Origin: Phascolarctobacterium sp.
GTDB lineage: Bacteria; Bacillota; Negativicutes; Acidaminococcales; Acidaminococcaceae
Direction of reading: 5' to 3'
Assembly: GCF_045124115.1 (NCBI RefSeq)
Contig: NZ_JBGVLF010000041.1
Span: 5,137 to 69,136, forward strand
DNA: 64,000 nt
This document shows, one piece after another, positions 11,611-64,000 of this stretch (position 1 is the first letter of the stretch; the number at the start of each line of letters is the position of its first letter). Both the position numbers and the translations under genes were made by a program. The notes under the pieces were generated by a model. The model was not told where the DNA came from. It did not search any database and saw only the letters and a list, made by a program, of their open reading frames with translations.

Positions 11611-11673
11611 TTTTCTAGCAAGAGATGGCTGGTGGTCGGTTTTCCTACTCCCTAAGAGTAGGGGGTGATTGCT

Positions 11674-12556: not shown

Positions 12557-15056
12557 ATGTTGTTTACAAGGAAGATGAAGTTAACTAAATTGCAAAAGCA
12601 AGTGCTGGGTGGAATGCTGTGCGGAGCTGTGTGCATGGGCATTTTTAATCCGGGGGGGGGCAGAGGCTGCTTATGTAACAGCTAGCATGAAGGTTTTGTC
12701 CGGTAATGCGGAACGTGTTGACGATGAAACAGTTCTGATTGATAGTAATAGTAGCGTTAAGATTAATGCATCCGATGGTACTATAGAATTGAATAGAGGA
12801 GATGCTGTTTTAGGTTCTTGTAATGATGTGAAAATTACTATGAACGATGGTGAATTACAAGTTGTTGCCGGTGGTCTCAATGTTGATGGTGGCGATTCTG
12901 TAACTGGAAATAGCGTTGTAATAAATGGTGGCTCTGTAGGTGTGACAGTTGTCGGTGGTTGTGTATGGGAAGATGGTTCGGCTAATGAAAATAAGGTTAT
13001 AGTTACCAACGGTACAATTGGTATTGAAGAATATGGTTATGTTAGCGGTGGTTATGTGGACGTAGGTGATGATGGATCAGGCAACGCTGGCAAAAACGAA
13101 GTAGCAGTTAGCGGTGGCACGATTAATTGCAATGTTTATGGTGGTTGGATAGATGAGACTTATGTAAATGGTTCTGCCAATGAAAATAAAGTAACGATTA
13201 GTGGCGGTGTGATTGTTGGCAACGAATCTGAAGTGGAAATTTATGGTGGTTATGTAGTCGGAGAGGATGATGGGTACGGTAATACCGTAAATGGTTCTGC
13301 CGATGGCAATATTGTAACTATTAGTGGCGGAACAATTGGTGCTACTGAATCTGAAGTGGAAATTTATGGTGGCAGGGTATATGGTGATGGATTCGGAGAA
13401 GGTCTTATTGTAAATGGCTCTGCAAACGGAAATACTGTGACGATTAGCGGTGGAACAATTGGTGGCGACGAATCTTATGTAGATATTTTTGGTGGTTTTG
13501 CAAGTGGAACTGGTTCCGCCAATAACAATAAAGTGATGGTGAGCGGTGTCAATGTTGGCTCCGAAGGTGTTGTTGGTGGTGGATATGCATACGGAAATGG
13601 TTCTGCAAATGGAAATACAGTAACAATCAGCGGCGAAAACACAGGAATTAGTATAATTGTTGGCGGTTATTCTGAAGAAGGCAATGCTATTAATAATACC
13701 GTTAACCTTTACGCAAATGCTAAGTTTGCAACTCTTTTTGGCGGAATGACCGGCGAAGATGGGACTGGTGATGTTAAGACAGGTAACACTTTAAATGTTA
13801 GGGGTTCTAACTTAACCGTTAAAGGAATAGAGAACTTTGAAAACATCAACTTCTACGTTCCTAGCGATGCTAAAAATGGTGATACAGTTTTGACCGTTAA
13901 GGAAAATGTAAATATCCAAGATACTACCATTAATGCGGGCGTCCAAAAGGGTTCTGAATTAAGTAAGGGTGATAGTTTAACCTTATTAAAGAGTGAAAAA
14001 GAATTAACAGGTACTGCTGCTAGCTTTGGTAAAGTTACTGAAACCGATTTCATAGACTATGATATGAAAATTACCCAAGATGGTAACTCTCTTAAAGGTA
14101 CCATTACCTCTGGAGGCTCTACCAACGAAGTCTCCAAATCCCCTGTGGAAACTATGACTGCTAATTTGGCAATGATCAACATGGGTCTTGACCAAGTAGC
14201 AAGAACCGGTTTTAACAGCGCAGCTGCAGCCATCAAGAGCGAAACTGCACAAGGTGCGGATTCCAGTGATGCGGCAATCTTCGCTAATATTTCCGGTAGC
14301 AATGTAAAAGCAGAATCCGGCTCCCATATTGATATTGATGGCTGGAACTTCAACCTGGGCTTTGCCAAAGAAATCGAAAACAATAGTGGCAAACTGTTGG
14401 TAGCTCCCATTGTTGAATACGGTCATGGCGATTACGACTCCTATTTGGACAACGGAGTACACGCTGACGGTAACAGCAAATATTGGGGCGCAGGCCTGAT
14501 GGCTCGCCAAACTAACAATAATGGCTTCTACTACGAAGGCAGCATTATTGGCGGTAAGAGCGACAGCGATTACAGCTCCTCCGATATTGGTAGCGGTGTA
14601 AGCTACGACAGCGATGCCCTCTTTGTAGCAGCACATCTGGGTGCAGGCAAAGTAGTAGAGATTGACGATGCTAGCAACATCAACTACTATGGTAAATTCT
14701 TCTACACCCATTTGGGTGGTGACGACGTAACCTTGAGCAATGGCGCAGACTACAGTTTCGACAGCAGCGAATCCAAACGCATTATGCTGGGCAGCCGCTG
14801 GACTCGCAGCATCAACGCTAAGAACGGCCTCTACGCAGGTCTTGCATGGCAGTACGAATTTGATGCCGAAGCAAGAGCAACTGTTAAAGGCATAGCTGCT
14901 CCTTCTCCCAGTATGCAGGGTCACACCGGCATTATGGAACTGGGCTGGAAAGTACAGCCTAGCGATGCTCCCATGGACGTAGACCTTGGCTTCATGGGCT
15001 ACACAGGCAAAACCAAAGGCGTGAGCCTCAACCTCAACCTGAATTGGAAATTCTAA
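12557..15056 (+). CDS. Type Va autotransporter, reading frame broken at a G9 tract (phase-variable OFF state or homopolymer error)
   Basis: AAGGAG RBS lies 10 nt before ATG 12557. This opens signal peptide MLFTRKMKLTKLQKQVLGGMLCGAVCMGIFNPGG, which runs into G9 and stops at 12685. The passenger and beta-barrel are in another frame (track ORF 12609-15056), ending ...NLNLNWKF. G8 would fuse the two frames. Confidence 0.8.
12652..12660 (+). repeat. Homopolymeric G9 tract
   Basis: Read directly: c ggggggggg c. Confidence 0.95.
12960..13640 (+). repeat. Tandem ~120-bp (~40-aa) passenger-domain repeats
   Basis: Repeated NGSAN(E/G)N.VTISGG.IG..ES.V.I.GG units. A 26-bp exact repeat GAATCTGAAGTGGAAATTTATGGTGG occurs at 13224 and 13347. 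Confidence 0.8.
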
Positions 15057-22967: not shown

Positions 22968-22995
22968 TTGCGTGGGGGTACAGAAGTGCTATAAT
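22968..22995 (+). promoter_or_regulatory. Promoter of the second autotransporter
   Basis: TTGCGT, 16-nt spacer, TGCTATAAT (extended -10). Confidence 0.5.
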
Positions 22996-23130: not shown

Positions 23131-25359
23131 ATGAAAAGGAAAATGTTGAAACGCAGTTTGGCATTGGGAGCTTTAATGGCGTTTGCGATTACCGGGAGCG
23201 CAATGGCAAAGGAAGTTTCTTTTAATGAAGGTGTTTTTCTTGATGCAGACTATTCTGCTTTAGGTAATTATGCCAGATTTAATGAAGCTATTAAGGGAGA
23301 CGATGTAGAGAAAATTGATATAACTAATACCGATACAACTAGGGTGAAAGCTCCTGGTGTAGGCATTTGGGGACGTCATGGAGCAGACAACGAGACTATT
23401 AATATAATTAAGCCTAATGCTGATTTAAATGTTGTTGCTGAATCATATGGTATTGCTTTCGTATCTAATTCAAGCATAAATGTAAAAAATTTAGATGTTA
23501 AATCAAAAGATAATGCAATCCACATTGACAACGGTAAAGCGACAATAGTAGCAAACAATGTTAATTTGCAATCACAAACAAGAGGCATCCTCGTTATGAC
23601 TAGTAATCCTAGTGATGGATTGGCTGGTGATTTAAACTTAACTGTTAAAGAGTCTTTAACAATTAATAGTGATGAGCATAGTTTGCGTGTCGGGACTGGC
23701 AATTTAACTATTGATGCTAGCAATGCGGATGTAACAATCACTTCTAAAAACGAAACTGCTATGAAAACCAGTGGGACTTCTGCAGAGGATGGAAAAATTG
23801 GTATTACTTCCAAAAATTTAACAGTAAATGGTGTAGTTTATGCTGATAAGGGTACTATTGCCTTAGAAGCTACCAATTTGATGAAATTAAGCAGCAATAC
23901 CTACGATGCAAATGCCCTAAAGGTTGATAGTGGTTCTGTTATCAAATTAGCCGGAGCATCTACAATGCAAATTAACGGTGACGTAGAAGCAACAGGTACT
24001 CTTGAGGGTCTGAATTTGGTAGGTAGTGATTCTCATTTGAATGGTAAAATCATTGCCGGTATAGATGCTCCTGTTGCCTTCTCTGATAGCGCATTTTGGA
24101 ATAACAGCGGTGCAAGTCATGTTAGCAAACTTACCGGTACTAACGCTGTGATTAATCAAAAATCTTCTGAAAGTATTATTGCAGGTGAATTTAATGGTGA
24201 TGCTACTGTTACATTCACTAACAGCGGCAAGTTTTTGATGGATAAAGGCGAGGGTACTTTAAGGCTTGCTATGGACACCGAATCCGACCTTGAAAAAATT
24301 GCAGAACATATTGGCAGAAAAGATGCTGATGTTGATGTTAAAGCAACTATCATCAGAGCAGAAGGAATCGTTGAAGGGGAGACTGTTGTAGAAGTTGGCT
24401 ATGATAACAATACCACTAATGTTGTCCTTGATAATGCTGGGGCTACAGCTGACTACTATCTTGGTACCGTTGCAAAAGTAGTTTCTAAGGAAAACACCAC
24501 TAACGCAGGTATTGCGGACATGGCAGCTTTGGGCTTGGGCGCATGGCGCGCAGACAACGACACTCTTATGAAACGTATGGGCGAATTGCGTAATGCTAAC
24601 GGCGAGCAAGGTACTTGGGCTCGTATGACCCGTAGGGAAAGCGAATATGGTGCAGCCAATATGCAGGATAATACCTACAGCGTAGGCTATGACCAAAAAG
24701 TTGCTGATGACTGGACTGTCGGCGCAGCCATTACCTATAAAGATGGCTCCGCAAGCTTTGCGAAAGGCAGTGCAGACATCGAACAAAAAGGTATCGCTTT
24801 CTATGGTACAAAACTGAACGAAAATGGTAGCTATATCGATATCGTTGCTAAGTATACCAATCTGGACAATGACTATACTGTAAATGGTGGCATCGGCAGT
24901 GGCGATTATGATGCTGATGCCTACAGCCTGAGTGCAGAATACGGCAAACGCTTTACTCAAGACAATGGCTTCTGGGTAGAACCTCAAGCAGAGTTGACCT
25001 ATGGTCATGTTGGCAGTGCTTCCTACACTACCGCAGCAGGCAAAGCAGCTCAAGACAGCTTTGATAGCTTCGTTGGCCGCGTAGGCGTATTGCTGGGCAA
25101 AGATGTGGCTGCAGGCAATGTATACGCAAAAGCTTCCTACCTGTATGACTTCGACGGTGAAGCATCCATGAGCTTCAGCGACGGCAAGATTACCAAGACC
25201 GTTGAAGACGATCTCGGTGGCGGTTGGTTCGAAGTTGGCGTTGGTACCAACATCAACTTGAGTAAAGCAACTTACGTATATGCAGACGTAGAGAAGACCT
25301 TCGGTGGCGACGTAGACACCAAATGGCAATGGAATTTGGGCGTACGTTACAGCTTCTAA
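23131..25359 (+). CDS. Type Va autotransporter (intact)
   Basis: Signal peptide MKRKMLKRSLALGALMAFAITGSAMA. Beta-helix-like passenger rich in N/T/G/S. C-terminal beta-barrel ends WQWNLGVRYSF. Confidence 0.85.
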   Translation: MKRKMLKRSLALGALMAFAITGSAMAKEVSFNEGVFLDADYSALGNYARFNEAIKGDDVEKIDITNTDTTRVKAPGVGIWGRHGADNETINIIKPNADLNVVAESYGIAFVSNSSINVKNLDVKSKDNAIHIDNGKATIVANNVNLQSQTRGILVMTSNPSDGLAGDLNLTVKESLTINSDEHSLRVGTGNLTIDASNADVTITSKNETAMKTSGTSAEDGKIGITSKNLTVNGVVYADKGTIALEATNLMKLSSNTYDANALKVDSGSVIKLAGASTMQINGDVEATGTLEGLNLVGSDSHLNGKIIAGIDAPVAFSDSAFWNNSGASHVSKLTGTNAVINQKSSESIIAGEFNGDATVTFTNSGKFLMDKGEGTLRLAMDTESDLEKIAEHIGRKDADVDVKATIIRAEGIVEGETVVEVGYDNNTTNVVLDNAGATADYYLGTVAKVVSKENTTNAGIADMAALGLGAWRADNDTLMKRMGELRNANGEQGTWARMTRRESEYGAANMQDNTYSVGYDQKVADDWTVGAAITYKDGSASFAKGSADIEQKGIAFYGTKLNENGSYIDIVAKYTNLDNDYTVNGGIGSGDYDADAYSLSAEYGKRFTQDNGFWVEPQAELTYGHVGSASYTTAAGKAAQDSFDSFVGRVGVLLGKDVAAGNVYAKASYLYDFDGEASMSFSDGKITKTVEDDLGGGWFEVGVGTNINLSKATYVYADVEKTFGGDVDTKWQWNLGVRYSF

Positions 25360-34949: not shown

Positions 34950-35115
34950 TTTAAAATCGGGTTCTTGGGTAATTTATGTTGGAAGCAGGTGCGATTCCTG
35001 CACGATCCCGTCGCTGTAATAGGGAGTGAGTCTGCGGTATGCCACTGGCGCAAGCTGGGAAGGCGCGGAGGAGCGATGATCTTAAGTCAGAAGACCTGCC
35101 CAGGGATAGAAGCTA
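34950..35115 (+). promoter_or_regulatory. Cobalamin riboswitch (canonical class)
   Basis: GGAAGCAGGTGCGATTCCTGCACGATCCCGTCGCTGTAA core. GCCACTGG...GGGAAGGC motif. B12 box AGTCAGAAGACCTGCC (35085-35100). Confidence 0.88.
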
Positions 35116-35182
35116 CTGCTGCGCGAGACGGTAAGGGCGGAAATAGGTATCAGTACTTTTAGGAGAAGTGTACCTGTTTTTG

Positions 35183-51624: not shown

Positions 51625-51732
51625 AAGAGACCTATGTAGATTTTACACATCTGCATAGGTCTTTTTTAATGGGCGAAAACGTTTCTGGAATAGAAAAGTG
51701 TGAAAGGTTGCAAAAATCTATTCTAGAAAATG
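51625..51732 (+). repeat. 108-bp direct repeat, left copy (terminator plus 46-bp palindromic box)
   Basis: 102/108 identical to 53135-53242 by manual alignment. Contains terminator GACCTATGTAGAT-TTTACAC-ATCTGCATAGGTC+T6 (51627-51667). Contains box TTCTGGAATAGA-N22-TCTATTCTAGAA (51683-51728). Confidence 0.9.
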
Positions 51733-51822: not shown

Positions 51823-53121
51823 ATGGAAATAAAAAGAGATTTTTACTTAGAGCAATTAATTAAGCGCAAGGGCAATGGTCTGATCAAAATAATCACAGGT
51901 ATTCGTCGTTGTGGTAAATCATATTTGTTAAATACTTTGTTCTACAACCATCTTTTGGAGCAAGGCGTAACTGCTGACCACATTCTCCGTTTTGCTTTCG
52001 ATTCTGCTGATGATCTGCATCTTATAGGCGAAAGCTTAATCAGTATGCAAAAAGAAAAAAGAGGTGTTGATCCGGAAAAATTTGTTGAATATATTCAGTC
52101 ACAAGTAAAGGATGATGATACTTACTATCTGCTTTTGGACGAGATTCAGATGTTAGACTGTTTTGAAGCTGTTTTAAACGGCTATTTACGGATAAGCAAT
52201 CTAGACGTTTTCGTTACCGGTAGTAATGCTAAGCTGTTATCTAAGGATGTGGCTACGGAGTTTGCCGGCCGTGGTGATGAAATCCGTATGTATCCTTTAA
52301 GTTTTGCAGAGTTTATGTCCGTTTATCAAGGCGACAAGTATATGGGGTTGTCTGAGTATATGCTTTATGGTGGTATTCCCCTTGTAGTGTTGCGGGAAGA
52401 TGCTAAGGATAAAATTGCTTTGCTGCAGAATCTTTTTAGTGAAATATATATTAGAGATATCAAAATACGCAATAAGGTTAAAAACATTGGTGAATTAGAA
52501 GATCTGTTAAATATGCTGTCTTCTGCTATCGGTTCTTTGACTAATTTCGAGAAGCTGCGCAATACTTTTAGAAGCATAAAGAAGTCTAAGATTACGGCTG
52601 CGACTATTAAGAAGTATTTGGATTATCTGGAAGACTCTTTTTTGGTGGAGGCTGCTGTACGATATGATATCAAGGGCAAGGCATATATTGAAACTCCGAA
52701 GAAGTTTTATTTCTCTGATCTTGGCTTGCGTAATGCGAGAATTAATTTTAGGCAGTTTGAACAGACTCATTCCATGGAGAATGTGATTTATAATGAGCTG
52801 CGTATGCGTGGCTATAGTGTGGATGTGGGCATTGTGCCGGTGGCGGAGAAGGATGCGGATGGCAATGTAAAGCGCAAACAGTTGGAGGTTGATTTCGTGT
52901 GCAATTTGGGCTCGACTAGGTGTTATATCCAATCTGCCTATGCACTTCCGGATGAGGCCAAGCGGATGCAGGAGATACGTCCATTTAGACGAATAGATGA
53001 TTCTTTTAAGAAGGTTGTAGTTACGAAGGATTTAGTGGTTCCTTTTTATGATGATTACGGCATTCTTACTGTGAGCATTTATGATTTTTTACTTAAGCCC
53101 GATTTACTAGAGGCAATTTAA
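51823..53121 (+). CDS. AAA+ ATPase with DUF4143-type C-terminal domain
   Basis: Walker A GIRRCGKSYLL and Walker B LLLDEIQ. C-terminal half is typical of the AAA_14/DUF4143 family, by eye. Confidence 0.78.
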   Translation: MEIKRDFYLEQLIKRKGNGLIKIITGIRRCGKSYLLNTLFYNHLLEQGVTADHILRFAFDSADDLHLIGESLISMQKEKRGVDPEKFVEYIQSQVKDDDTYYLLLDEIQMLDCFEAVLNGYLRISNLDVFVTGSNAKLLSKDVATEFAGRGDEIRMYPLSFAEFMSVYQGDKYMGLSEYMLYGGIPLVVLREDAKDKIALLQNLFSEIYIRDIKIRNKVKNIGELEDLLNMLSSAIGSLTNFEKLRNTFRSIKKSKITAATIKKYLDYLEDSFLVEAAVRYDIKGKAYIETPKKFYFSDLGLRNARINFRQFEQTHSMENVIYNELRMRGYSVDVGIVPVAEKDADGNVKRKQLEVDFVCNLGSTRCYIQSAYALPDEAKRMQEIRPFRRIDDSFKKVVVTKDLVVPFYDDYGILTVSIYDFLLKPDLLEAI

Positions 53122-53134
53122 TATTGTGGTGATC

Positions 53135-53242
53135 AAGAGACCTATGTAGATTTTACACATCTGCATAGGTCTTTTTTTATGGATAAAAACGTTTCTAGAA
53201 TAGAAAAGTGTGAAGGGTTGCAAAAATCTATTCTAGAAAATG
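53135..53242 (+). repeat. 108-bp direct repeat, right copy
   Basis: See 51625-51732. Terminator at 53137-53178 and box at 53193-53238. Confidence 0.9.
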
Positions 53243-53335
53243 TTGTTGGCGTTCCACATTGCCCCTAAAACTGCGGAAGCAGTCGGTACTGGGGATACAA
53301 GTGCAGTAACCACCGCACATTTCAGCCTAAATGTC

Positions 53336-53364
53336 TTGTATGGGGGGGGCAAAGGTGTTATAAT
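53336..53364 (+). promoter_or_regulatory. Candidate promoter of the polysaccharide locus with a G8 tract in the spacer
   Basis: TTGTAT (weak -35), 17-nt spacer starting with G8 (53342-53349), then TGTTATAAT extended -10 (53356-53364). Confidence 0.5.
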
Positions 53365-53452
53365 GATATGACGAATACAATGCGTGGCAAAGATGCGTGT
53401 TAGAAAAAGACAGTCTATTTTTATAAATGATGAAGCGGAGTGAAGGTTTGGC

Positions 53453-54079
53453 ATGAGCAATTTTTGCGGCAAGCTAGCGAAGACGGTGTTTGATTACAGT
53501 TTAACGGCAGTAGGTACGGTGTGTATCAGTCCGCTGTTAGTTTATATTGCCTATAGAATAAAAAAAGAGGATCCGGGTCCGGTGTTTTTTGCTCATGAGC
53601 GTATTGGCAAGGATGGCAAGCCTTTTCCTTGCTATAAGTTCCGGAGCATGGTTGTAAATTCCCAGGAGATGCTAGAAAAATATTTGGCAGAAAATTCCGA
53701 CGCCCGTGCGGAGTGGGAACGTGATTTCAAGTTGAAGGATGATCCGCGGATTACGCCTATTGGCAAGGTGTTGCGCAGGACAAGTTTGGATGAGCTGCCG
53801 CAGATTTTTAATGTGCTGCGGGGCGAGATGAGCCTTGTAGGTCCGCGTCCTGTGATTCAGGAGGAGTTGGACAAGTATTATGGCGAGACTGCGAAGCTGT
53901 ACGCCAGTGTGAAGCCTGGGATTACGGGTTTGTGGCAGGTGAGCGGACGCAGCGATTTGGGGTATGACCAGCGTGTGGCGCTGGATGCGGAGTATATCAA
54001 GCACAGAAGCTTTTGGGGCGATGTGGTGATTTTGTGGAAGACTATTGGCGTGGTGCTGATGAAGAAAGGTGCGTATTAA
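53453..54079 (+). CDS. Initiating undecaprenyl-phosphate sugar phosphotransferase (small PGT, bacterial sugar transferase family)
   Basis: SLDELPQIFNVLRGEMSLVGPRP and KPGITGLWQVSGRS. Confidence 0.9.
   Translation: MSNFCGKLAKTVFDYSLTAVGTVCISPLLVYIAYRIKKEDPGPVFFAHERIGKDGKPFPCYKFRSMVVNSQEMLEKYLAENSDARAEWERDFKLKDDPRITPIGKVLRRTSLDELPQIFNVLRGEMSLVGPRPVIQEELDKYYGETAKLYASVKPGITGLWQVSGRSDLGYDQRVALDAEYIKHRSFWGDVVILWKTIGVVLMKKGAY
54055..54077 (+). repeat. 23-bp direct repeat, left copy (3' end of the sugar transferase gene)
   Basis: GCTGATGAAGAAAGGTGCGTATT is identical to 56184-56206. Confidence 0.9.
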
Positions 54080-54180: not shown

Positions 54181-56151
54181 ATGTGTTCTTGTTCTAATAG
54201 TGAAATCATAGACATTCTAGACAGATATTTTGATATTAATGACACTGACTATGCTGTACTGATAGATGGTAAATGGGGTACCGGTAAAACATATTTTGCT
54301 AAAAACACACTGCGAGCACACATTTATTCTAAGTATATAACTGACACAAAGAGGTTTAAGGAAGTAATTTATATATCTTTATTCTCTTGTGAATCCGTAG
54401 ATAAACTGTATGACAATATTATTGGTCAAACATTTTTAGGAAATCTAGAAAATAAAAGCAGAGATGTTTATCAAACTGAAACAGAAAAACCGCTTGAGAA
54501 AAGAGGCTTTTGTAATGTAAACGGGATTTCTTCCATTGTTAAAGCAATGGGTGCTGTAACTGATTTACTTGGTGAAAATAAAAAAGAGTTAATTAGGAAC
54601 GTCGCTAAGGATACGATTATTAATTACGAAAATTACGTTTATGTTTTGGACGATTTAGAGCGTTCAAAAATCCCTCTTGAAGAAATTTTGGGATTTATAG
54701 ATTTTCTTGCAGATCAGAATCATGCGAAGGTTATAGTTTTAGCTAATGAAAGTGAATTAAAGAGTAAAAATCATCAAGAAGAAGTAAAAGAGAAACCTGC
54801 TGATAAGATAGATACTTCCCCAAAGGGAAGGGATGAAAGATTGGTTGATGATGCTTGCTCTGATATTGTAGACGATGTTGCTAATGTTGAATACTATAAA
54901 TTTAAAGAAAAGGTTATAGGGGTTACAGTAACTTTTGAAAATGATTTTGCTACTCTTTATGACATATTCATCAATGGCAAAGACGAAGAAGTGAAAGAAG
55001 TATTGGCAAGTAATAAGGACTGTATTCTTGATGTATTCCGGATGTGCCAATGTAGTAATTTACGAACATTGTCTTTTACGTTGAATACTTTCTGTCATAT
55101 ATATCACGATATAAAGGATTCTTTTAGTCGCTTAGTTGGTTCAAGAGAAGTTAGTTTTAAGTCCGTTATATGTGTAATACTTGTCGATTTGGCTTTTAAT
55201 TCCATATTAGTCAAAGATAAGAGAAAGAAACCCAATTTTAAGGATGATAGCATAAAAATGGAATTTCCTATAGGTGCGTATTACAGAACCATAGGAATAA
55301 AAGCATATAACCCTTTTGAAGGTAGAACTATGTATAAATTTGTAGATAACTATATACGTAGTTTTAAACTTAATAAAAATGATCTTGATCAAGCTGTGGA
55401 AGACTTCATTGTGCAATGTGAATTAAAAGCTCAGTGGGTGTTTGATACTATTGAACAAGCTCATTTTTCTGATGAAGAAACCTGCAAAGAATTATTAGAT
55501 GCTGTTGTACAGAAATTAGAAAAAGATGAAATCAACATCAAGCTTTACGCCAAAATTGTTACTAATATTTTTACTTTAGCTGCAATATTGGAAAATGATG
55601 ATTTAGTTACACGTACCAAAGCTGCAATGAAGCACAATATCTTACGTCATTTTTCTGAATACAGAGATGGTGATTGGCATGTTTTTAGTGAGAATGGTAA
55701 AGACGCAGTGGTTTTCATCGAAGAACTGGAAGAATATATAAGAGTGCTGGTGGTTAATTCAAAAAAGGAAGAGTATAGATTAATCTACCAAAAGACTGAT
55801 GTAGAGTTGGTCGATTATTTGCGAAAGCGTGCAAGTGATGCTCAATATGGCATACACGATTATATCAAAGTACTTTGCTCGCTGCCCCTAAAACAGTTTG
55901 TCGCTAGAATAAGGAAGATGTCTATACGAGACTTGTTTGAGTTATCAAGTACTGTGAGTTCTTTTGCGTATTACTTTAATACGCTTAATGATTACACTGA
56001 TGATGATTATGAGTACTTAGTAGTTCTTAAGGCTGAAATAGATAAAATAGAGCAGGATAGGGATGAGGATAAAATGCGTAGGTTCCACTGTGAACTATTT
56101 AGCAAAAATCTTGAAGAACTGCTTCAAAAAATGGCTAAAGCGACCAATTAA
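54181..56151 (+). CDS. KAP-family-like P-loop NTPase (soluble form)
   Basis: Walker A DGKWGTGKTYF and Walker B-like VYVLDDLERS. Long alpha-helical C-terminal region with no obvious TM insert. Visibly AT-rich. Confidence 0.65.
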   Translation: MCSCSNSEIIDILDRYFDINDTDYAVLIDGKWGTGKTYFAKNTLRAHIYSKYITDTKRFKEVIYISLFSCESVDKLYDNIIGQTFLGNLENKSRDVYQTETEKPLEKRGFCNVNGISSIVKAMGAVTDLLGENKKELIRNVAKDTIINYENYVYVLDDLERSKIPLEEILGFIDFLADQNHAKVIVLANESELKSKNHQEEVKEKPADKIDTSPKGRDERLVDDACSDIVDDVANVEYYKFKEKVIGVTVTFENDFATLYDIFINGKDEEVKEVLASNKDCILDVFRMCQCSNLRTLSFTLNTFCHIYHDIKDSFSRLVGSREVSFKSVICVILVDLAFNSILVKDKRKKPNFKDDSIKMEFPIGAYYRTIGIKAYNPFEGRTMYKFVDNYIRSFKLNKNDLDQAVEDFIVQCELKAQWVFDTIEQAHFSDEETCKELLDAVVQKLEKDEINIKLYAKIVTNIFTLAAILENDDLVTRTKAAMKHNILRHFSEYRDGDWHVFSENGKDAVVFIEELEEYIRVLVVNSKKEEYRLIYQKTDVELVDYLRKRASDAQYGIHDYIKVLCSLPLKQFVARIRKMSIRDLFELSSTVSSFAYYFNTLNDYTDDDYEYLVVLKAEIDKIEQDRDEDKMRRFHCELFSKNLEELLQKMAKATN

Positions 56152-56183
56152 AATAAAATGAGAAACTGTTATTGTTTTTTGAA

Positions 56184-56206
56184 GCTGATGAAGAAAGGTG
56201 CGTATT
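56184..56206 (+). repeat. 23-bp direct repeat, right copy
   Basis: Identical to 54055-54077. Reads LMKKGAY then a stop (TGA here, TAA in the left copy). Confidence 0.9.
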
Positions 56207-56234
56207 GAAAAGATTTTTAAGGAGAATATAGATT

Positions 56235-56450
56235 ATGGGAACAATCTTTGTCAAATATAATCAGAAAGAAAATATTTGGGAAGTTTATGGACCGGATGAT
56301 AGGTGGGTTGATTCTGTAAAAGAAAAAAGATACGCATTAGTAGAAGCTAATAAGATAAAAAATAGCAATCAGTTATGCCAAATATTAGTGATTGACGAAG
56401 TTGGCGAAATTCATACATGTGGTGCTGACAAAAAAGATGATTTGAAATAG
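56235..56450 (+). CDS. Small hypothetical protein, possibly DUF2188-like
   Basis: 71 aa. AAGGAG RBS lies upstream. W.V.G......KE.A...A pattern, by eye only. Confidence 0.35.
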   Translation: MGTIFVKYNQKENIWEVYGPDDRWVDSVKEKRYALVEANKIKNSNQLCQILVIDEVGEIHTCGADKKDDLK

Positions 56451-56452
56451 GT

Positions 56453-57256
56453 ATGGTGCGAATGGAAAAATATGAGTTTAGAGAAGGATTAGTTTCTATT
56501 ATTATGCCGGCATATAATGCTAGTAAATATATTGAAGTAGCAATACGAAGTGTTCTCGAACAATCATTTGAAAATTGGGAGTTATTGGTTATCAATGATT
56601 GTTCTACAGATAATACTGCGGAGTTGGTAAAGAAATATGAAGCACTTGATTCTAGGATTAGACTAGTTAATTTTGAGACTAATCAAGGCGTTGCATCTGC
56701 TAGAAATCATGGCCTGAATATTGCTGCCGGCGAGTATGTTGCGTTTCTTGATAGTGATGATGTATGGGAGAAAAATAAGCTAGAAAAACAGATTTCTTTT
56801 ATAAAAATCCAGAAGGCTGATATGGTATGCACTGCGTACTCCATGATTAATGGCTCTGGTGACATTATAAAAAATAGAAGCGTACCTAAGGTGTTGACTT
56901 ATGATGACCTGTTAAAGGAGAACGTCGTGATTTTTTCATCAACGCTTTTTTTACATAATGCTATAGAAAACTTAAAGTTTAGTAAAGAATGGTTTCATGA
57001 AGATTATATTTTCCTGCTAGATTTTCTTAGAAGTAATCACAGCATTGCTGGGCTAAATGATGTGTTAATGAAATACCGTATTCAGAATCAAGGGCGATCT
57101 TTTAATAAGATAAATGCTGCGAAAAATAGATGGCTTATATACAGACGTTATCTGAAACTTGGTATTATAAAAAGCTTATGGTATTTTAGTTCTTACACTG
57201 TTCGTGGCATTATTAAATATAAAATAGTTTTATGGAGTTATAGTACTTTTCTGTAG
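56453..57256 (+). CDS. Family 2 glycosyltransferase
   Basis: VSIIMPAYNASKYI, NDCSTDNT, AFLDSDD. Confidence 0.87.
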   Translation: MVRMEKYEFREGLVSIIMPAYNASKYIEVAIRSVLEQSFENWELLVINDCSTDNTAELVKKYEALDSRIRLVNFETNQGVASARNHGLNIAAGEYVAFLDSDDVWEKNKLEKQISFIKIQKADMVCTAYSMINGSGDIIKNRSVPKVLTYDDLLKENVVIFSSTLFLHNAIENLKFSKEWFHEDYIFLLDFLRSNHSIAGLNDVLMKYRIQNQGRSFNKINAAKNRWLIYRRYLKLGIIKSLWYFSSYTVRGIIKYKIVLWSYSTFL

Positions 57257-57264
57257 GTGATAAT

Positions 57265-58359
57265 ATGAACAATCAGAAAAAAGTAGGAGTGATTTGCTTT
57301 AATGAGCGAGGGCTCGTACCATTTGTTGAAAATTATATCCAAGCTTTAGAAAGACATGATATTGATTATGAGTGTATTTTTTGGGATAGATATACTAATG
57401 CCGAAACTGAGAAAAAAGGAAACATATATACTCTTCATGCAGTGTGCAAGCCGGGAGGAAGTAAGCTTAGCAAGGTTTTGCCAATGTTTAAATATAAATG
57501 GATAGTTGAACGGATAATAAAAAAGGAAAAATACACGCATTTAATTATATTGACAACACAACCTGGATTTTTGCTTCATGGTTTACTTTGTAAGAATTAC
57601 AGCGGTAAATATATTTTTGACTATAGAGACTACACTTATGAACGATTTGAGTATTATAAAAATATAGTTAATGATTTGATAGATCAATCCTATTTTACAG
57701 CGGTATCTTCAAAAGGTTTTCTTAGATTTCTTGAACCGCATCAGAAAATGTATTTTTGTCATAATGTTACTAACCTAGAGAGCATTGTGTCAAACAAAAT
57801 AGATATAAAAGGAAAAGATAACATTACCATAGGATTTGTTGGTGGAGTAAGGTATTTCAGCGAGAACGCAAAATTCTTGCAATCTTTAGCTAACATAAAC
57901 AGATATACACTAACCTATGTCGGAAGACAAAATATTGATTGCGATTTGAAAAGTTATTGCAAGGAAAAGAAAATACTAAATACCATTTTTAAGGGGTCTT
58001 TTGATAATAACGAAAAACCTCGAATATATCAAACTATAGATATGATTAATTCAATCTATGGTAATCAAAGCCTTGAAGTAACTACCGCGTTACCTAACAG
58101 ACTTTATGATGCATTAATTTATAAAAAACCAATAATTACTTCTGCAGGAACCTATTTAGGTAAAATAGTTGTAGAAAACAAAGTTGGTATTAGTGTTGAT
58201 TTAGATAAAGATGATATACATGCTGTTATAGAGGATTATGTAAATAATTTTGATGCAAATATATTTAATGAAAATGCTGAGCGTTTGTTAAAACAGGTTC
58301 TTGATGAGCAACAGATGTATATCAACAAAATTGAAGAGTTCGTGAATTTAGAGGACTAA
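57265..58359 (+). CDS. Putative GT-B-fold glycosyltransferase / capsule biosynthesis protein
   Basis: 364 aa in locus context. The C-terminal half resembles the GT4 nucleotide-sugar-binding region. Weak call. Confidence 0.5.
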   Translation: MNNQKKVGVICFNERGLVPFVENYIQALERHDIDYECIFWDRYTNAETEKKGNIYTLHAVCKPGGSKLSKVLPMFKYKWIVERIIKKEKYTHLIILTTQPGFLLHGLLCKNYSGKYIFDYRDYTYERFEYYKNIVNDLIDQSYFTAVSSKGFLRFLEPHQKMYFCHNVTNLESIVSNKIDIKGKDNITIGFVGGVRYFSENAKFLQSLANINRYTLTYVGRQNIDCDLKSYCKEKKILNTIFKGSFDNNEKPRIYQTIDMINSIYGNQSLEVTTALPNRLYDALIYKKPIITSAGTYLGKIVVENKVGISVDLDKDDIHAVIEDYVNNFDANIFNENAERLLKQVLDEQQMYINKIEEFVNLED

Positions 58360-58365
58360 GTTGAT

Positions 58366-59460
58366 ATGAAAAAAATCTTACTTGTTTTTGGTACACGACC
58401 TGAAGCTATCAAGATGTGCCCCTTGGTAAACGAACTAAAGAAGCATAGTTGTTTTGCAGTCAAAGTGTGTGTTACTGGGCAACATAGGCAGATGTTGGAT
58501 CAAGTGCTAGAGGCTTTTGTTGTGCAACCAGATTATGACCTTGCCATTATGAAGGAACGTCAGACGTTATTTGATGTTACTACAGAGGTACTGAATAAGC
58601 TAAAGTCTATTTTGGAAGCGGAGAAACCTGATATTGTGCTTGTGCATGGAGATACGACTACTACTTTTGCTGCATCTTTAGCGTGTTTTTATTTGAATAT
58701 TGCTGTGGGGCATGTTGAAGCTGGTTTGCGCACTTATAATGTGGCTTCACCTTTTCCAGAAGAGTTCAATCGTCAAGCAGTTGGTATTGTAGCAAAGTAT
58801 AACTTCGCTCCTACGGAAACTGCCAAAGAGAACTTGCTAAGAGAGGGTAAGAATGCAGAGCAGATTTACGTTACCGGTAATACTGTGATTGATGCCTTAC
58901 AGACCACAGTAAAGGATTATTACCAGCATCCAGAATTGGAGTGGGCAAAGGGGAGTAGGCTTATCCTTTTGACTGCTCACAGACGTGAGAACTTGGGGGC
59001 GCCGATGCAATCTATGTTCCGCGCCATTAAGCGTATTGTTGATGAACATGAGGATGTAAAGGTTATTTACCCTATTCACATGAATCCTGTGGTACGCAGC
59101 ACTGCTGCAGAAATTTTCTGTGATGACGATAAGATCCATATTATAGAACCATTAGACGTTTTAGACTTTCATAATTTTATGGCGAGAGCACATCTTATTC
59201 TTACAGATAGTGGAGGAATACAAGAGGAAGCACCTAGTTTGGGTAAGCCAGTTCTTGTAATGCGCGATACTACTGAAAGACCGGAAGGAATTGCTGCAGG
59301 TACGTTGCGATTAGTTGGAACTAAAGAAGATGTTATATATAGAGAGTTCAAACGCTTGTTGGATGACGTACAAGCTTATGAACGAATGGCACATGCAGCT
59401 AATCCATATGGTGATGGCCATGCGTGCGAGAAAATAGCTGATATTTTGGAGAAGAGATAG
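58366..59460 (+). CDS. wecB: UDP-N-acetylglucosamine 2-epimerase (non-hydrolysing)
   Basis: FGTRPEAIKM, HVEAGLRT, DSGGIQEEAP. Confidence 0.92.
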   Translation: MKKILLVFGTRPEAIKMCPLVNELKKHSCFAVKVCVTGQHRQMLDQVLEAFVVQPDYDLAIMKERQTLFDVTTEVLNKLKSILEAEKPDIVLVHGDTTTTFAASLACFYLNIAVGHVEAGLRTYNVASPFPEEFNRQAVGIVAKYNFAPTETAKENLLREGKNAEQIYVTGNTVIDALQTTVKDYYQHPELEWAKGSRLILLTAHRRENLGAPMQSMFRAIKRIVDEHEDVKVIYPIHMNPVVRSTAAEIFCDDDKIHIIEPLDVLDFHNFMARAHLILTDSGGIQEEAPSLGKPVLVMRDTTERPEGIAAGTLRLVGTKEDVIYREFKRLLDDVQAYERMAHAANPYGDGHACEKIADILEKR

Positions 59461-59494
59461 GTATCTTTCTTGTTTTAAAACAGGAGTGAATTTG

Positions 59495-60667
<1,173 letters not shown>

Positions 60668-60669
60668 GA

Positions 60670-61737
60670 ATGAAAACATTGACCATTACCTTACATGATA
60701 CAGATAATTGCGGTTCATCCTTACAGTCTTTTGCTTTGCAGCATTTTTTATTAAGTCAAGGAATTGATAATGAATTAATAGATTACGTTCCTTCCTATAC
60801 TCAGAATAATGGTAGAGCATTTAAGACTTTTTTGAGAAAGGTTATATTTTTTAAGGCTTCTCGTGAACGAAAACAAAAATTTGCAGATTTTAAGAATCGT
60901 TTTCTTAAGCTTACTAGGAAAAAATATACTACATACGATGAATTAAAAAAAGGTGGGTTAAGTGCGGAGGTTTACATTACTGGTAGCGACCAGCTGTGGA
61001 ATAGTATGTATCTTTGCGGACAGGATCCAGCTTTTTATCTTGATTTTGTAAAAGAGGCTAAAAAGATAGGTTATGCTGTTAGTTTGGGTAGAGAAGATAT
61101 ACCTGAAGATAATCTTACAATCGTTCAAAAATATGCGCATGGTTTTTCTTGGCTCTCATTACGAGAATCTTGTGCTATTCATCAACTGAAAACTATTTTA
61201 CCAAATGTTACTATGGATTATGTTTGTGATCCCGTGCTGCTTAATGAGGTTCAGGAGTATGAGCCCATTAAATCTGATAGACTTATTAAAGATAAATATA
61301 TATTGGTATATTTGGCTCAAAAGTATGATAAGAAATCTTTGGATAAGGTTGTCGCTCATATTAAGGGAAATAAAGGTGTAAAGGTTGTATTTATTGGTAC
61401 ATACCTAAATCGCTGTACTTGTGATATCCATATTCGTGATGTTGCTCCTGGAGATTTTTTGAGCTTGATTGCTAATGCCGAATATATTATCTCTAATTCA
61501 TTCCATGCTACAGTTTTCTCAATAATGTATAATAAGCAATTTATTGCAGTTATGCCTCCTGAGAACAGCAGTCGTATAAAAGAAGTGTTGGCTGTTGCTG
61601 GTATAAAGGGACATGAATATTCTAAAGATATGAAAGTTCCATATATAAGTGAAGGTGAGTATGAGGAAGTAAATAAACGTATTGCAACTTTTAGAGAAAA
61701 GTCAAGAGAGTTATTGATGAATAATTTGGGTAAATAA
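60670..61737 (+). CDS. Polysaccharide pyruvyl transferase
   Basis: N-terminal DNCGSSLQSFALQ and GSDQLWN motifs typical of the PS_pyruv_trans family. Confidence 0.82.
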   Translation: MKTLTITLHDTDNCGSSLQSFALQHFLLSQGIDNELIDYVPSYTQNNGRAFKTFLRKVIFFKASRERKQKFADFKNRFLKLTRKKYTTYDELKKGGLSAEVYITGSDQLWNSMYLCGQDPAFYLDFVKEAKKIGYAVSLGREDIPEDNLTIVQKYAHGFSWLSLRESCAIHQLKTILPNVTMDYVCDPVLLNEVQEYEPIKSDRLIKDKYILVYLAQKYDKKSLDKVVAHIKGNKGVKVVFIGTYLNRCTCDIHIRDVAPGDFLSLIANAEYIISNSFHATVFSIMYNKQFIAVMPPENSSRIKEVLAVAGIKGHEYSKDMKVPYISEGEYEEVNKRIATFREKSRELLMNNLGK

Positions 61738-61770
61738 GTGGGGTAAAAAGTCAATTTTTGGAGAGTACGA

Positions 61771-62775
61771 ATGGATTCAATGAATAAAAACAGTTTTTTG
61801 GTTAGTATTGTTGTTCCAGTTTATAATGCTGAAAAATATATCACTAGATGTGTTGAGAGCATAGTTAATCAGACATATGTAAATATAGAAATACTACTCA
61901 TTGATGATGGTAGCACTGATAATGGCGGCTGCATTTGCGATACTCTTGCTAAAGATGATGTTAGAATAAGGGTCATTCACAAATCTAATGGTGGAGTTAG
62001 TAGTGCTAGAAACGTGGGAATAGAACTATGTACTGGTGATTTAGTGATGTTTGTAGATGCTGATGATACTATTGAAGATTGTTGTGTTGAGGAGTTATGT
62101 AAACCATTTTTTTCTAACAACAATGATATAGATATTTCCATATGTGGTTATAACGAATTTTTTCAAAAGAATAATTCTGTGAAAACATGGCTTCCAGTTG
62201 AGTTAAAAGGAGATATAAAGGTTGACTATTATGCATTAAGGAGTTATATATCTTCTCCTTGGGGAATCGCATACAGGAAATCCATAATATTAGAAAATAA
62301 AGTTCGCTTTCCTAACATGCGATTCGGAGAAGATCAATTTTTCAATTTCATGTATTTATATTGGGGTTATAGGTTTTGCTTTATAAACAAGGCTCTTTAC
62401 AATTATTGGCACCATGACAATGAAAGTCTCAGTACTAAACGAGAGTTGAAAAGCTATGAAGGTTTTCTCGAACGTCTGAAATTTGAAAAGAAACTTTTAA
62501 AAAAATTGGAAATTAAACGTGACGTAGATATATTATGTAATCATTTCGTTGTAGGATTAGCACATTTTGCTGTTCTTGATGATGCCAAAAATGATTATGA
62601 TAGTTTTAATTTTAGAGTGCAGCAAGGTATTGGAGTTTTAGATGGTAAGTTTGGAGCAGTTTCATTAAAAGCAAATGCAATGGCTTCACTGATCAAGTAC
62701 AAACTCACATTTTTAGTATATATGTTGTATGTTGGTCGGTTTTACTTAAATAAGTATTTTAGGAGTAAAGGATAA
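61771..62775 (+). CDS. Family 2 glycosyltransferase
   Basis: VSIVVPVYNAEKYI, IDDGSTDN, FVDADD. Confidence 0.87.
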   Translation: MDSMNKNSFLVSIVVPVYNAEKYITRCVESIVNQTYVNIEILLIDDGSTDNGGCICDTLAKDDVRIRVIHKSNGGVSSARNVGIELCTGDLVMFVDADDTIEDCCVEELCKPFFSNNNDIDISICGYNEFFQKNNSVKTWLPVELKGDIKVDYYALRSYISSPWGIAYRKSIILENKVRFPNMRFGEDQFFNFMYLYWGYRFCFINKALYNYWHHDNESLSTKRELKSYEGFLERLKFEKKLLKKLEIKRDVDILCNHFVVGLAHFAVLDDAKNDYDSFNFRVQQGIGVLDGKFGAVSLKANAMASLIKYKLTFLVYMLYVGRFYLNKYFRSKG

Positions 62776-62777
62776 TT

Positions 62778-64000
62778 ATGGGAATAAATAAAAGTTTTAG
62801 GGATGGATTATTTTTTCTTATATGTTTCTTTCTTCTATTTAATAATATTCCATTATCTATTCAAATAACAGCATTTGTTGGACCATTTGGTAGTAAATTA
62901 GTATGTTTTCCATTAATCATTGGCTTAATATATTCTTTGGTTATGCATTATAGATATAAAAATGTATTTGTTTCTATAAATGCCTTTAAAAAATTCTTAT
63001 ATTTTCTTTTTGGTGTTTCTTTTTTATCTTTGGTAACTGGTCTTTGGGTATTTCCCTATTATGATTTGATTTTAAAAGGTCCGCCTGAACAAATGGGTAA
63101 ATTTCTGACTCTATTGAAGTTTTCAGGAAGATATACTGACTATTTATCTGATAAACAATTACTTTCCTTTTGGATGATAGTAAAACCAATTAGAGGACTT
63201 TTTTTGAATACAATTTTTTCCTTTGGTACCGCATACTTGATTTATTGCTGGTATCACGATGACTGGAAACGTGCTTTGAATATTATTACCAAAGCGGCAC
63301 TGTGTTCTATTGGAGTAATTTTTGCATATTGTATTGTTGAAGTTAATTATCTAGCAGGCAGCCAATGGGCAACGAAGGTTTTAGAAACCATTAATCCATA
63401 TATCCACGAAGTTAGAACAGATGGTAAATGGTGCCTCCTCTATTGTGGAAGGGGCAGTTACGTTCGCTATTTGCAGAGCCATCTTATTTCGGTATGTACA
63501 GCGCATTTTGCCTTCCGTTCCTTTGGTTGCAAATCATAAAGAAAAAACACTATTTATACATATGCGTAACTGTAATCATGACATTTTTACTATTCTTAAC
63601 CAAGGCTAGAACAGGATTCATGCTTCACTTAGGAGAGCTTGTGTTGCTGTTGCTGGTAGTTCTCTTGTTGCGACAAAAAGAGAATTGGAAAGGTTTAGCA
63701 ATTATATTATGTTGCAGTGCAGTAGCGTTTGTTGGTAGCAATGTTTTTATATCCAATTATATGACACCTAAAAATAATTCTCACCAAAAGATTGTTGCCC
63801 AAAAAAGAATGACTAAAAATGTAAAAACTACTATTTCTGATAGCATGAAAAATTACGTAGAAAGTAATGCTGCTTCCTTGGCTAATCCAGATAAACGTAG
63901 TAATCGTGCTAGGTATTCCGTAATGGAAGCGGATTTCAAAATAGGTTTAGACCATCCGTTACTTGGCGTTGGCATGGGTTTACGCGATGCGTATATGCCG
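62778..64000 (+). pseudogene. Wzy-like O-antigen polymerase/ligase-family membrane protein, frame broken near 63429-63434, 3' end beyond the window
   Basis: Polytopic N-terminal part is in frame 0 (62778-~63431). The continuation is in another frame from 63428 (MVPPLLWKGQLRSLFAEPSYFG...TKARTGFM...HPLLGVGMG), open to the window end. One extra G would give ...DGKWWPPLLW... Confidence 0.6.

What the first reader, a model, noticed from the sequence alone, without database searches (positions are those of the whole stretch)
53336..53364. G8 tract in the promoter spacer of the surface-polysaccharide locus
Seen: the only recognisable promoter upstream of the initiating sugar transferase is TTGTAT-(17 nt)-TGTTATAAT. 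The first 8 nt of the spacer are a G8 run (53342-53349).

Established knowledge: homopolymer length changes between -35 and -10 modulate promoter strength in known phase-variable loci, for example neisserial porA/opc-type promoters.

Inference: together with the G9 tract at 12652, these are the only two G runs of 8 nt or longer that I found by eye in 64 kb. Both sit at surface-structure genes, which argues for selection rather than chance.

Caveat: the -35 element is weak (TTG only). The extended -10 may make the spacer length less critical.
Basis: partly seen in the sequence, partly recalled or inferred. Interest (0 to 1): 0.62.

Follow-up and report, generated by a model that had tools for sequence, protein, structure and literature searches.

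The report
Variable poly-G promoter of glycan locus
A run of eight G's sits between the two promoter boxes of a surface-sugar gene cluster in a ruminant gut bacterium (Phascolarctobacterium). It changes length between otherwise identical strains and is kept across the genus, so it looks like a slippage "dimmer switch" of a kind so far described mainly in pathogens.

Summary
TTGTAT (53336-41), G8 (53342-49), a 17-nt spacer and TGT-TATAAT (53356-64) lie 89 nt upstream of a WbaP-type initiating sugar transferase. A strong terminator of the upstream gene precedes them. G8 and the G9 at 12652 are the only G or C runs of 6 nt or more in 64 kb.

The organism is a Phascolarctobacterium (Negativicutes) from ruminant gut. 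In public metagenome contigs, both haplotypes of this promoter region occur with G8 (11 samples) and with G7 (5 samples). No other indel falls in the promoter core (53288-53367). A G5 in a paralogous promoter never varies.

At least four other Phascolarctobacterium lineages keep a -35 box, then G(n), about 9-10 nt, then a -10 box at the head of their polysaccharide loci. Their flanks are unrelated, and tract lengths run G6, G7, G8, G9 and G12. The commonest length always gives a 16-17-nt spacer.

The best explanation is slipped-strand length change that modulates operon transcription. The promoter assignment and the effect on expression are inferred, because no RNA data or raw reads were available. 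It is a new member of a known kind (porA/opc/fim-type promoters), and I found no earlier report for this genus or class.

The parts
53135..53178 (+). Intrinsic terminator of the upstream AAA_14/DUF4143 gene (17-bp stem, 7-nt loop, T7). It insulates the polysaccharide operon from read-through.
   Evidence: (I1): MFE -23.2 kcal/mol, z = -4.99.
53317..53334 (+). Weak inverted repeat ACATTT-N6-AAATGT next to the -35 box. It is not significant here, but stronger counterparts sit at the same place in related lineages.
   Evidence: window z = -1.8; L004, the P0018 group and the P0108 group z = -4.7 to -5.7.
53336..53341 (+). Putative -35 hexamer TTGTAT (3 of 6 matches; TTGACT in related lineages).
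53342..53349 (+). G8 homopolymer, the first 8 nt of the 17-nt spacer. It is the length-variable element (G7 or G8 in public samples).
53356..53364 (+). Extended -10 element TGT-TATAAT.
   Evidence: The -10 box is conserved in alignment A1.
53370..53372 (+). Inferred transcription start, 6-8 nt after the -10 box. It is not mapped.
   Evidence: Inference from promoter geometry. No RNA runs were available.
53453..54079 (+). Initiating polyprenyl-phosphate sugar-1-phosphate transferase. It is 208 aa and matches the catalytic domain of WbaP/EPS-type enzymes.
   Evidence: PF02397, 5e-66; TIGR03022 C-terminal part, 4e-99, below the full-length cut-off.
54181..63539 (+). Downstream co-oriented low-GC (29-38%) glycan genes: KAP NTPase, GT2, an unknown 364-aa protein, UDP-GlcNAc 2-epimerase, a FrhB-like protein, a pyruvyl transferase, GT2 and an unknown protein. 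They are presumed to form one operon with the transferase.
   Evidence: no intergenic terminator; GC drop.
12652..12660 (+). Companion G9 tract inside the signal-peptide coding region of an autotransporter-like gene (ATG 12557; long frame to 15056). G9 and G7 are out of frame. G8 or G11 gives an 832/833-aa protein.
22968..22995 (+). Paralogous promoter TTGCGT-G5-TACAGAAGTGC-TATAAT upstream of the autotransporter gene 23131-25359. Its short tract is invariant and serves as an internal control.

Best explanation
The G8 run is a hypermutable simple-sequence tract that fills the 5' half of the spacer of the sigma-70-type promoter driving the surface-polysaccharide operon of a ruminant-gut Phascolarctobacterium.

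Slipped-strand mispairing during replication adds or removes a G. This switches the -35/-10 spacing between 17 nt (G8, optimal) and 16 nt (G7). In relatives the spacing also reaches 18, 19 and 21 nt. The -35 box is thereby shifted and rotated relative to the -10 box, which should change how often RNA polymerase starts transcription. A clonal population would then always contain cells that make more or less of the polysaccharide. That is a heritable and reversible volume control, useful against phages, host immunity or a changing niche.

Shown here:
- the tract and the promoter-like boxes;
- the upstream terminator;
- recurrent length polymorphism with no other indel in the promoter core;
- conservation of the architecture across the genus;
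- the rarity of such runs elsewhere in the window.

Inferred:
- that this site is the active promoter;
- that a length change alters transcription;
- that switching is fast and reversible within one population.
For: 1. Anatomy. The site is the best promoter candidate in the 270 nt between a strong terminator and the ATG.

2. Length polymorphism in the same species.
- Haplotype A, identical to the window, has G8 in X1-4, X21 and X22. It has G7 in X5 and X11.
- Haplotype B, about 89% identical and matching L114, has G8 in X6, X7, X8, X25 and L114. It has G7 in X5, X9, X10 and X30.
- Both lengths occur within study P4.

3. Control. A G5 at the same position of a paralogous promoter is invariant in X1, X5, X7 and X10.

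4. Conservation with unrelated flanks.
- L004 has TTGACT-G7-N9-TATAAT.
- L005 has CTTTAC-G8-N10-TATAAT upstream of a 481-aa transferase.
- The P0018/P0044/P0085 group has 28 promoters of the form TTGACT-G(n)-N10-TATAAT. Twenty-two have G7. True length variants are one G6, two G8 and one G9. Two further contigs carry substitutions that keep the 17-nt spacing.
- In a 593-column alignment of 25 of these sequences, the only internal indel columns are the G tract and one T-run.
- The human-gut P0108 group has TTGACT-G7-N9-TACACT at the head of an HTH-CpsB-Wza-Wzc-transferase capsule-type locus. One contig there has G12.

5. The commonest length always gives a 16-17-nt spacer.

6. Rarity. There are no other G/C runs of 6 nt or more in 64 kb, and about 0.12 runs of 8 or more are expected.

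7. A second variable tract, G9/G7, frameshifts a surface protein. A G8 also frameshifts a GT4-like gene in L006.

8. Precedent. In porA, 11G, 10G and 9G give high, 2-fold lower and 13-fold lower expression (PMC3639595). In fimX, C7 versus C8 differ 3.8-fold (PMC1891110).
Against: - No transcript data exist, so the start site and any effect on expression are unverified.
- In this lineage the -35 box is poor (TTG only) and the -10 box is extended (TGn). In model organisms that combination lessens dependence on the -35 box and the spacer.
- Only the 16- and 17-nt states were seen here. Both are usually functional, so the effect may be a modest modulation rather than ON/OFF.
- All population data are assembled contigs at 3-30x depth. 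Heterogeneity within a population was not observed directly, and samples from one study may be related.
- The JGI metagenome scan found no further copies.
Confidence: 0.7

Rival explanations
1. The tract really is mutable, but this has almost no consequence. The extended -10 box makes the promoter largely independent of the -35 box and the spacer. G7/G8 would then be tolerated polymorphism, and the G run a conserved but passive spacer sequence.
For: The window has TGT-TATAAT with a weak TTGTAT. Only the 16- and 17-nt states were seen in this species.
Against: - Lineages without a TG motif and with a near-consensus TTGACT keep the same tract (L004 and the P0018 group).
- An uninterrupted G run of 7 or more is kept where the flanks have diverged beyond alignment. 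Runs of 6 or more are otherwise absent.
- G12, G9 and G8 variants in relatives give 21-, 19- and 18-nt spacers. By established knowledge of sigma-70 promoters, such spacings are poor.
Confidence: 0.15
2. The G run is conserved because it is a recognition or structural element, and mutability is not what is selected. It could be a site for a regulator of surface genes, or part of a promoter class with a G-rich spacer that follows an upstream hairpin or operator. Length changes would then be incidental damage.
For: - A paralogous promoter with a G5 at the same position precedes an autotransporter gene and shares AATGTCTTG...GTGYTATAAT.
- Inverted repeats sit directly next to the -35 box in the related lineages.
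- The P0108 locus starts with an XRE-type HTH gene.
Against: - The inverted repeats differ completely in sequence between lineages, and the one in the window is not significant.
- A protein site would not explain why lengths of 6-12 coexist among near-identical sequences.
- A regulator site and slippage are not exclusive. The Bordetella fim promoters combine both (PMC1891110).
Confidence: 0.08
3. The finding is an artefact or chance. Either homopolymer length errors in Illumina assemblies create apparent G7/G8 differences, or the real promoter lies elsewhere and the tract is an irrelevant intergenic run.
For: Coverage of several contigs is low, at 2.7-10x. No raw reads and no RNA data were available.
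Against: - The same call recurs in independent samples and at up to 29x depth.
- The G5 control and all flanking sequence show no indels.
- Independent ENA and NCBI assemblies of other species show the same site-specific variability.
- No other candidate promoter scores close to this one.
Confidence: 0.05

Closest known systems
Neisseria meningitidis porA (poly-G) and opc (poly-C) phase-variable promoters
   Same: A G/C homopolymer lies between the -35 and -10 boxes. Changes of one nucleotide alter the spacing and give graded expression of a surface component. In porA, 11G is high, 10G is 2-fold lower and 9G is 13-fold lower (PMC3639595).
   Different: - The tract here is shorter (7-8 versus 9-14).
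- It fills only half of the spacer.
- It controls a whole polysaccharide operon rather than a single outer-membrane protein gene.
- The host is an anaerobic commensal Negativicute, not a proteobacterial pathogen.
- No expression data exist.
Bordetella pertussis fim2/fim3/fimX promoters (C-stretch)
   Same: A homopolymer lies between the upstream promoter or activator region and the -10 box. Even a short tract matters there: C7 versus C8 changed transcript level 3.8-fold (PMC1891110). Related Phascolarctobacterium promoters also have a structured element directly upstream of the tract.
   Different: The fim promoters depend on the BvgA activator and its 'fim box'. No activator or conserved box was identified here. 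The upstream inverted repeats differ in sequence between lineages, and the one in the window is weak.
Campylobacter jejuni poly-G contingency loci (capsule, LOS, flagellar glycosylation)
   Same: Poly-G runs of 8-11 nt are strikingly over-represented and concentrated in surface-glycan and surface-protein genes of a gut bacterium (PMC8355987, PMC8437040). The companion G9 tract (12652) and the L006 GT4 tract are of this intragenic type.
   Different: Most Campylobacter tracts are intragenic ON/OFF switches. The tract studied here is in a promoter. Campylobacter lacks MutS/MutL-type mismatch repair (my own knowledge), and the repair status of this organism was not examined.
Bacteroides invertible capsular-polysaccharide promoters
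   Same: The ecological role is the same. Both give stochastic, heritable variation of surface polysaccharide expression in a gut commensal by changing the promoter at the head of a variable glycan locus.
   Different: The mechanism is different. Bacteroides uses site-specific inversion between inverted repeats by a recombinase. No flanking inverted repeats enclose this promoter, and no recombinase gene is adjacent.

Membership tests
SSR (slipped-strand) phase-variable promoter / contingency locus | An uninterrupted simple-sequence repeat long enough to slip (a homopolymer of about 7 nt or more) | tested here: met
   G8 at 53342-53349.
SSR (slipped-strand) phase-variable promoter / contingency locus | The repeat lies within the core promoter, between the -35 and -10 boxes of the regulated gene | tested here: inconclusive
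   The sequence criteria are met. This is the best candidate promoter, it follows a terminator, and its architecture is conserved. The transcription start is not mapped, because no RNA runs were available.
SSR (slipped-strand) phase-variable promoter / contingency locus | Repeat number differs among otherwise identical or closely related genomes, and has changed more than once | tested here: met
   G7 and G8 both occur on haplotypes A and B. Lengths G6-G9 and G12 occur in sister lineages. The nearest neighbours of each variant carry the modal length.
SSR (slipped-strand) phase-variable promoter / contingency locus | The repeat is statistically over-represented against the genome background | tested here: met
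   There are no G/C runs of 6-7 nt, yet a G8 and a G9 are present. About 0.12 runs of 8 or more are expected.
SSR (slipped-strand) phase-variable promoter / contingency locus | A length change alters transcription or phenotype | not testable with these tools
   This needs reporter fusions or qRT-PCR of G7, G8 and G9 variants.
SSR (slipped-strand) phase-variable promoter / contingency locus | High-frequency, reversible switching within a clonal population | not testable with these tools
   Only assembled contigs were available and no raw reads. The same change recurring on different haplotypes is indirect support.
SSR (slipped-strand) phase-variable promoter / contingency locus | The regulated gene encodes a surface or host/phage-interaction function | tested here: met
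   A WbaP-type initiating transferase heads a low-GC, strain-variable glycan gene cluster.
Invertible (recombinase-driven) promoter | The promoter is bracketed by inverted repeats, with a site-specific recombinase nearby | tested here: not met
   No inverted repeat encloses 53336-53364. The only perfect one (53192-53204 / 53227-53239) lies upstream of it. No recombinase domain is found in the neighbouring genes.
Bordetella fim-type activator-dependent homopolymer promoter | A conserved activator-binding box lies upstream of the tract | tested here: inconclusive
   Inverted repeats lie next to the -35 box in the relatives (z = -4.7 to -5.7), but their sequences are unrelated. The copy in the window is weak (z = -1.8).

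The most novel reading that the evidence does not exclude
Phascolarctobacterium, an abundant succinate-consuming gut commensal of the diderm Firmicutes, may carry a genus-wide, anciently conserved poly-G 'phasome'. One part is an insulated promoter cassette, made of a hairpin, a -35 box, a G(n) run and a -10 box, that dials the whole surface-glycan locus up or down. The other part is a set of intragenic G tracts that switch autotransporters and glycosyltransferases on and off. If so, simple-sequence contingency loci are not only a pathogen strategy. They would be a second general route to surface variation in gut commensals, beside the invertible promoters of Bacteroides.
Probability: 0.5. Interest if true: 0.68.

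Novelty: new member of a known kind. Interest (0 to 1): 0.56.

Why it matters
Stochastic surface variation in gut commensals is known almost only from Bacteroidales, through DNA inversion. Simple-repeat contingency loci are textbook features of mucosal pathogens such as Neisseria, Haemophilus, Campylobacter, Helicobacter and Bordetella.

Here a homopolymer sits in the promoter spacer at the head of the polysaccharide locus. It is conserved across ruminant, pig and human-gut Phascolarctobacterium lineages and is visibly polymorphic in metagenomes. This would extend the pathogen-type mechanism to an abundant anaerobic commensal of the Negativicutes.

It also gives a concrete, easily genotyped marker, the tract length, for following phage- or host-driven selection on the cell surface in vivo. 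Finally, it warns that metagenome-assembled genomes of this genus will show apparent frameshifts and promoter variants that are biological rather than errors.

Literature searches found no earlier report for this genus or class.

Tried and rejected
- JGI metagenome pattern scan. The only hit (L003) has a 4-nt non-G insert and unrelated flanks. It is a chance match and was discarded.
- RNA runs for start-site mapping. None was available.
- Raw-read runs for heterogeneity within a sample. Only Logan contigs were available, so read-level variation could not be measured.
- Rfam on the whole window. It found only a cobalamin riboswitch at 34950-35117 and no known RNA element in the 5' UTR of the transferase gene.
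- Invertible-promoter hypothesis. It was rejected because no bracketing inverted repeats exist.
- The tool's consensus promoter scan. It misses the site because the -35 box matches only 3 of 6 positions. The promoter-like hits it lists on the minus strand at 53390-53363 and 53766-53739 face away from any gene and occur at chance frequency.
- I first treated the contigs of X8, X9, X25 and X30 as a third haplotype. Comparison with L114 showed that they are haplotype B, aligned over a shorter reference.
- The inverted repeat next to the -35 box was considered as a conserved operator. It was not adopted for the window, because its copy is weak.
- An order-5 Markov simulation is inflated by the tracts themselves and was not used as the null model.
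- No G8 (in-frame, ON) allele of the G9 gene was found in the six samples that covered it.

Full report
**1. What is in the sequence**

At 53336-53364 the plus strand reads TTGTAT-GGGGGGGG-CAAAGGTGT-TATAAT.
- The putative -35 box TTGTAT lies at 53336-41.
- G8 lies at 53342-49 and fills the first 8 of a 17-nt spacer.
- A TG at 53356-57 makes an extended -10 box, and a perfect TATAAT follows at 53359-64.
- The ATG of a 208-aa PF02397 sugar transferase follows at 53453. This protein matches the catalytic, C-terminal part of WbaP/EPS-type initiating phosphoglycosyl transferases.

The upstream gene (51823-53121, AAA_14/DUF4143) ends in a 17-bp hairpin with a T7 tail at 53135-53178. Its energy is -23 kcal/mol with z = -5. 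The transferase operon therefore needs its own promoter within about 270 nt. My scoring scan ranks the G8 site clearly first. The tool's stricter consensus scan omits it, because TTGTAT matches TTGACA at only 3 of 6 positions.

Downstream lie co-oriented genes:
- a KAP NTPase;
- a GT2 glycosyltransferase;
- an unassigned 364-aa protein;
- a UDP-GlcNAc 2-epimerase;
- a FrhB-like protein;
- a polysaccharide pyruvyl transferase;
- a second GT2.

No intergenic terminator separates them. GC content drops from about 45% to 29-38%, which is typical of exchangeable surface-glycan loci.

**2. Is it more than chance?**

The window is 43.6% GC. It has 13 G5 runs, no G6 or G7, one G8 and one G9, and no C run longer than 5. 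Extrapolating the run-length decay predicts about 0.12 G runs of 8 or more, and about 3 of length 6-7, where none is seen. An order-3 Markov simulation gave two or more such runs in 1% of trials. The length distribution is bimodal, as expected if two tracts are maintained by selection.

**3. Organism**

The closest genomic relatives of the transferase are Phascolarctobacterium MAGs (Acidaminococcaceae, Negativicutes). Runs that hold the sequence are bovine or gut metagenomes.

**4. Tract length in nature, same species**

Two haplotypes of the promoter region exist in Logan contigs of public runs.
- Haplotype A is identical to the window.
- Haplotype B is about 89% identical over 53249-53600 and lacks 53182-53248. 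It matches ENA contig L114.

| Haplotype | G8 | G7 |
|---|---|---|
| A | X1-X4, X21, X22 (one study) | X5, X11 (another study) |
| B | X6, X7, X8, X25, L114 | X5, X9, X10, X30 |

Both lengths of haplotype B occur within study P4. Within each haplotype there are no other indels in the promoter core (53288-53367). The same change has therefore arisen more than once, which is the signature of a slippage-prone tract.

A G5 occupies the same position in a paralogous promoter at 22968-22995, upstream of an autotransporter gene. It is invariant in X1, X5, X7 and X10. This argues against a general homopolymer artefact.

**5. Conservation in other lineages**

| Lineage | Promoter | Notes |
|---|---|---|
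| L004 (transferase 90% identical) | TTGACT-G7-ACAAGGGAT-TATAAT | Flanks unrelated to the window |
| L005 (67% identical, 481-aa full-length transferase) | CTTTAC-G8-ACAACAGTGC-TATAAT | |
| P0018/P0044/P0085 group (28 contigs from pig and other gut metagenomes) | TTGACT-G(n)-TA[TG]AT[GA]GGAT-TATAAT | About 126 nt upstream of the ATG |
| P0108 group (human gut) | TTGACT-G7-ACAACGTGG-TACACT | Sits upstream of the first gene of an HTH-CpsB-Wza-Wzc-kinase-transferase capsule-type locus; G7 in six contigs, G12 in one |

In the P0018/P0044/P0085 group:
- 22 contigs have G7, which gives a 17-nt spacer.
- L104 has G6 (16 nt).
- L108 and L121 have G8 (18 nt).
- L103 has G9 (19 nt).
- L096 and L110 carry substitutions at the end of the tract that keep the 17-nt spacing.

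In a 593-column alignment of 25 of these sequences, the only internal indel columns are the G tract and one T-run. Each length variant's nearest neighbours carry G7.

Alignment A1 shows invariant TT of the -35 box, the G run and the TA-A-T of the -10 box, amid divergent flanks. The commonest length always gives a 16-17-nt spacer.

**6. Companion tracts**

The G9 at 12652-60 lies after the codons for a signal peptide (ATG 12557, MLFTRKMKLTKLQKQVLGGMLCGAVCMGIFNPGG...). With G9 the frame stops at 12683-85. With G8 or G11 an 832/833-aa protein is read that ends ...NLNLNWKF, which looks like an autotransporter. X1 has G9. X5, X6, X7, X8 and X10 have G7, with no other change in 281 nt. Both states are out of frame.

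In L006 a G8 interrupts a GT4-like gene. This genus therefore uses poly-G tracts at several surface loci.

**7. Mechanism**

The best-supported reading is slipped-strand mispairing that changes the -35/-10 spacing and so the strength of the operon promoter. This would be a volume control rather than a strict switch, as in two documented cases:
- In meningococcal porA, 11G is high, 10G is 2-fold lower and 9G is 13-fold lower (PMC3639595).
- In Bordetella fimX, C7 and C8 differ 3.8-fold (PMC1891110).

The tract, its polymorphism, its conservation and its rarity are shown. The promoter identity and the effect on expression are inferred. In this lineage the weak -35 box with an extended -10 box may reduce the effect. 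The relatives with TTGACT and no TG motif should be more sensitive to spacing.

**8. Alternatives**

- A tolerated, nearly neutral polymorphism is possible (0.15).
- A conserved recognition or structural element is less likely (0.08). Inverted repeats next to the -35 box are strong in the relatives, but they differ in sequence and the copy in the window is weak.
- Artefact or chance is unlikely (0.05).
- An invertible promoter is excluded.

**9. Novelty**

The mechanism is a known kind. Searches of the literature found no report of simple-repeat phase variation in Phascolarctobacterium, Veillonella or the Negativicutes. I therefore class it as a new member of a known kind, of moderate interest. 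The finding is well supported and genus-wide, and it is relevant to how gut commensals vary their surface.

Noticed in passing
window 12557-15056 (G9 at 12652-12660): An autotransporter-like surface protein gene is split by the G9 tract just after its signal peptide. G8 or G11 restores an 832/833-aa open frame. Public samples carry G9 (X1) or G7 (X5, X6, X7, X8, X10), and both are out of frame.
   Followed up: partly
window 22968-22995: A paralogous promoter, AATGTC-TTGCGT-G5-TACAGAAGTGC-TATAAT, lies upstream of an autotransporter gene (23131-25359, PF03797). It shares flanking motifs with the G8 promoter. Its G5 is invariant in four runs. Run X10 holds a further copy of this promoter type at another locus.
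   Followed up: partly
window 51625-51732 and 53135-53242: A 108-nt direct repeat (94% identical) flanks the AAA_14/DUF4143 gene. It contains the terminator hairpin and a 45-nt element with perfect 13-bp inverted arms. That element is present three times, at 51683, 51767 and 53193. Haplotype B (L114) lacks 53182-53248. Logan contigs join these segments in several contexts.
   Followed up: partly
window 11640-11830: A small hydrophobic ORF (MSIFDILLVILDILKIVVTIFSFYF, about 11675-11752) lies between long inverted-repeat arms and downstream of a TGTTATGATATAAT promoter. It looks like a type I toxin.
   Followed up: no
L006:3612-3619 (CAYZOZ010000052, Phascolarctobacterium MAG): A G8 lies inside a GT4-like glycosyltransferase ORF. 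The frame after the tract is shifted, and G9 or G6 would restore the typical ...VRILHNHST... reading. It is a candidate for intragenic phase variation.
   Followed up: no
L004:2793-2821; L099 about 1340-1368; L145 about 1245-1275; L005 about 2000-2047: Each related lineage has a stable inverted repeat ending at or inside the -35 box (DNA-fold z of -2.3 to -5.7). The sequence differs in each lineage. It may be an insulating hairpin or an operator. The counterpart in the window (53317-53334) is weak.
   Followed up: partly
L013:1995-2030 (Duodenibacillus sp., Sutterellaceae): GGTTGC-G7-N11-TATAAT lies about 1 kb upstream of this organism's sugar transferase. It may be an independent case of a poly-G promoter spacer in an unrelated gut bacterium.
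   Followed up: no
window 54181-56151: A 656-aa KAP-family P-loop NTPase gene sits between the initiating transferase and the first glycosyltransferase. This is an unusual passenger in a glycan operon, and it is also present in haplotype B (L114).
   Followed up: no
L147:1248-1259: The human-gut Phascolarctobacterium capsule-locus promoter carries G12 in one metagenome, against G7 in six others. G12 gives a 21-nt spacer, which is probably an OFF state.
   Followed up: partly
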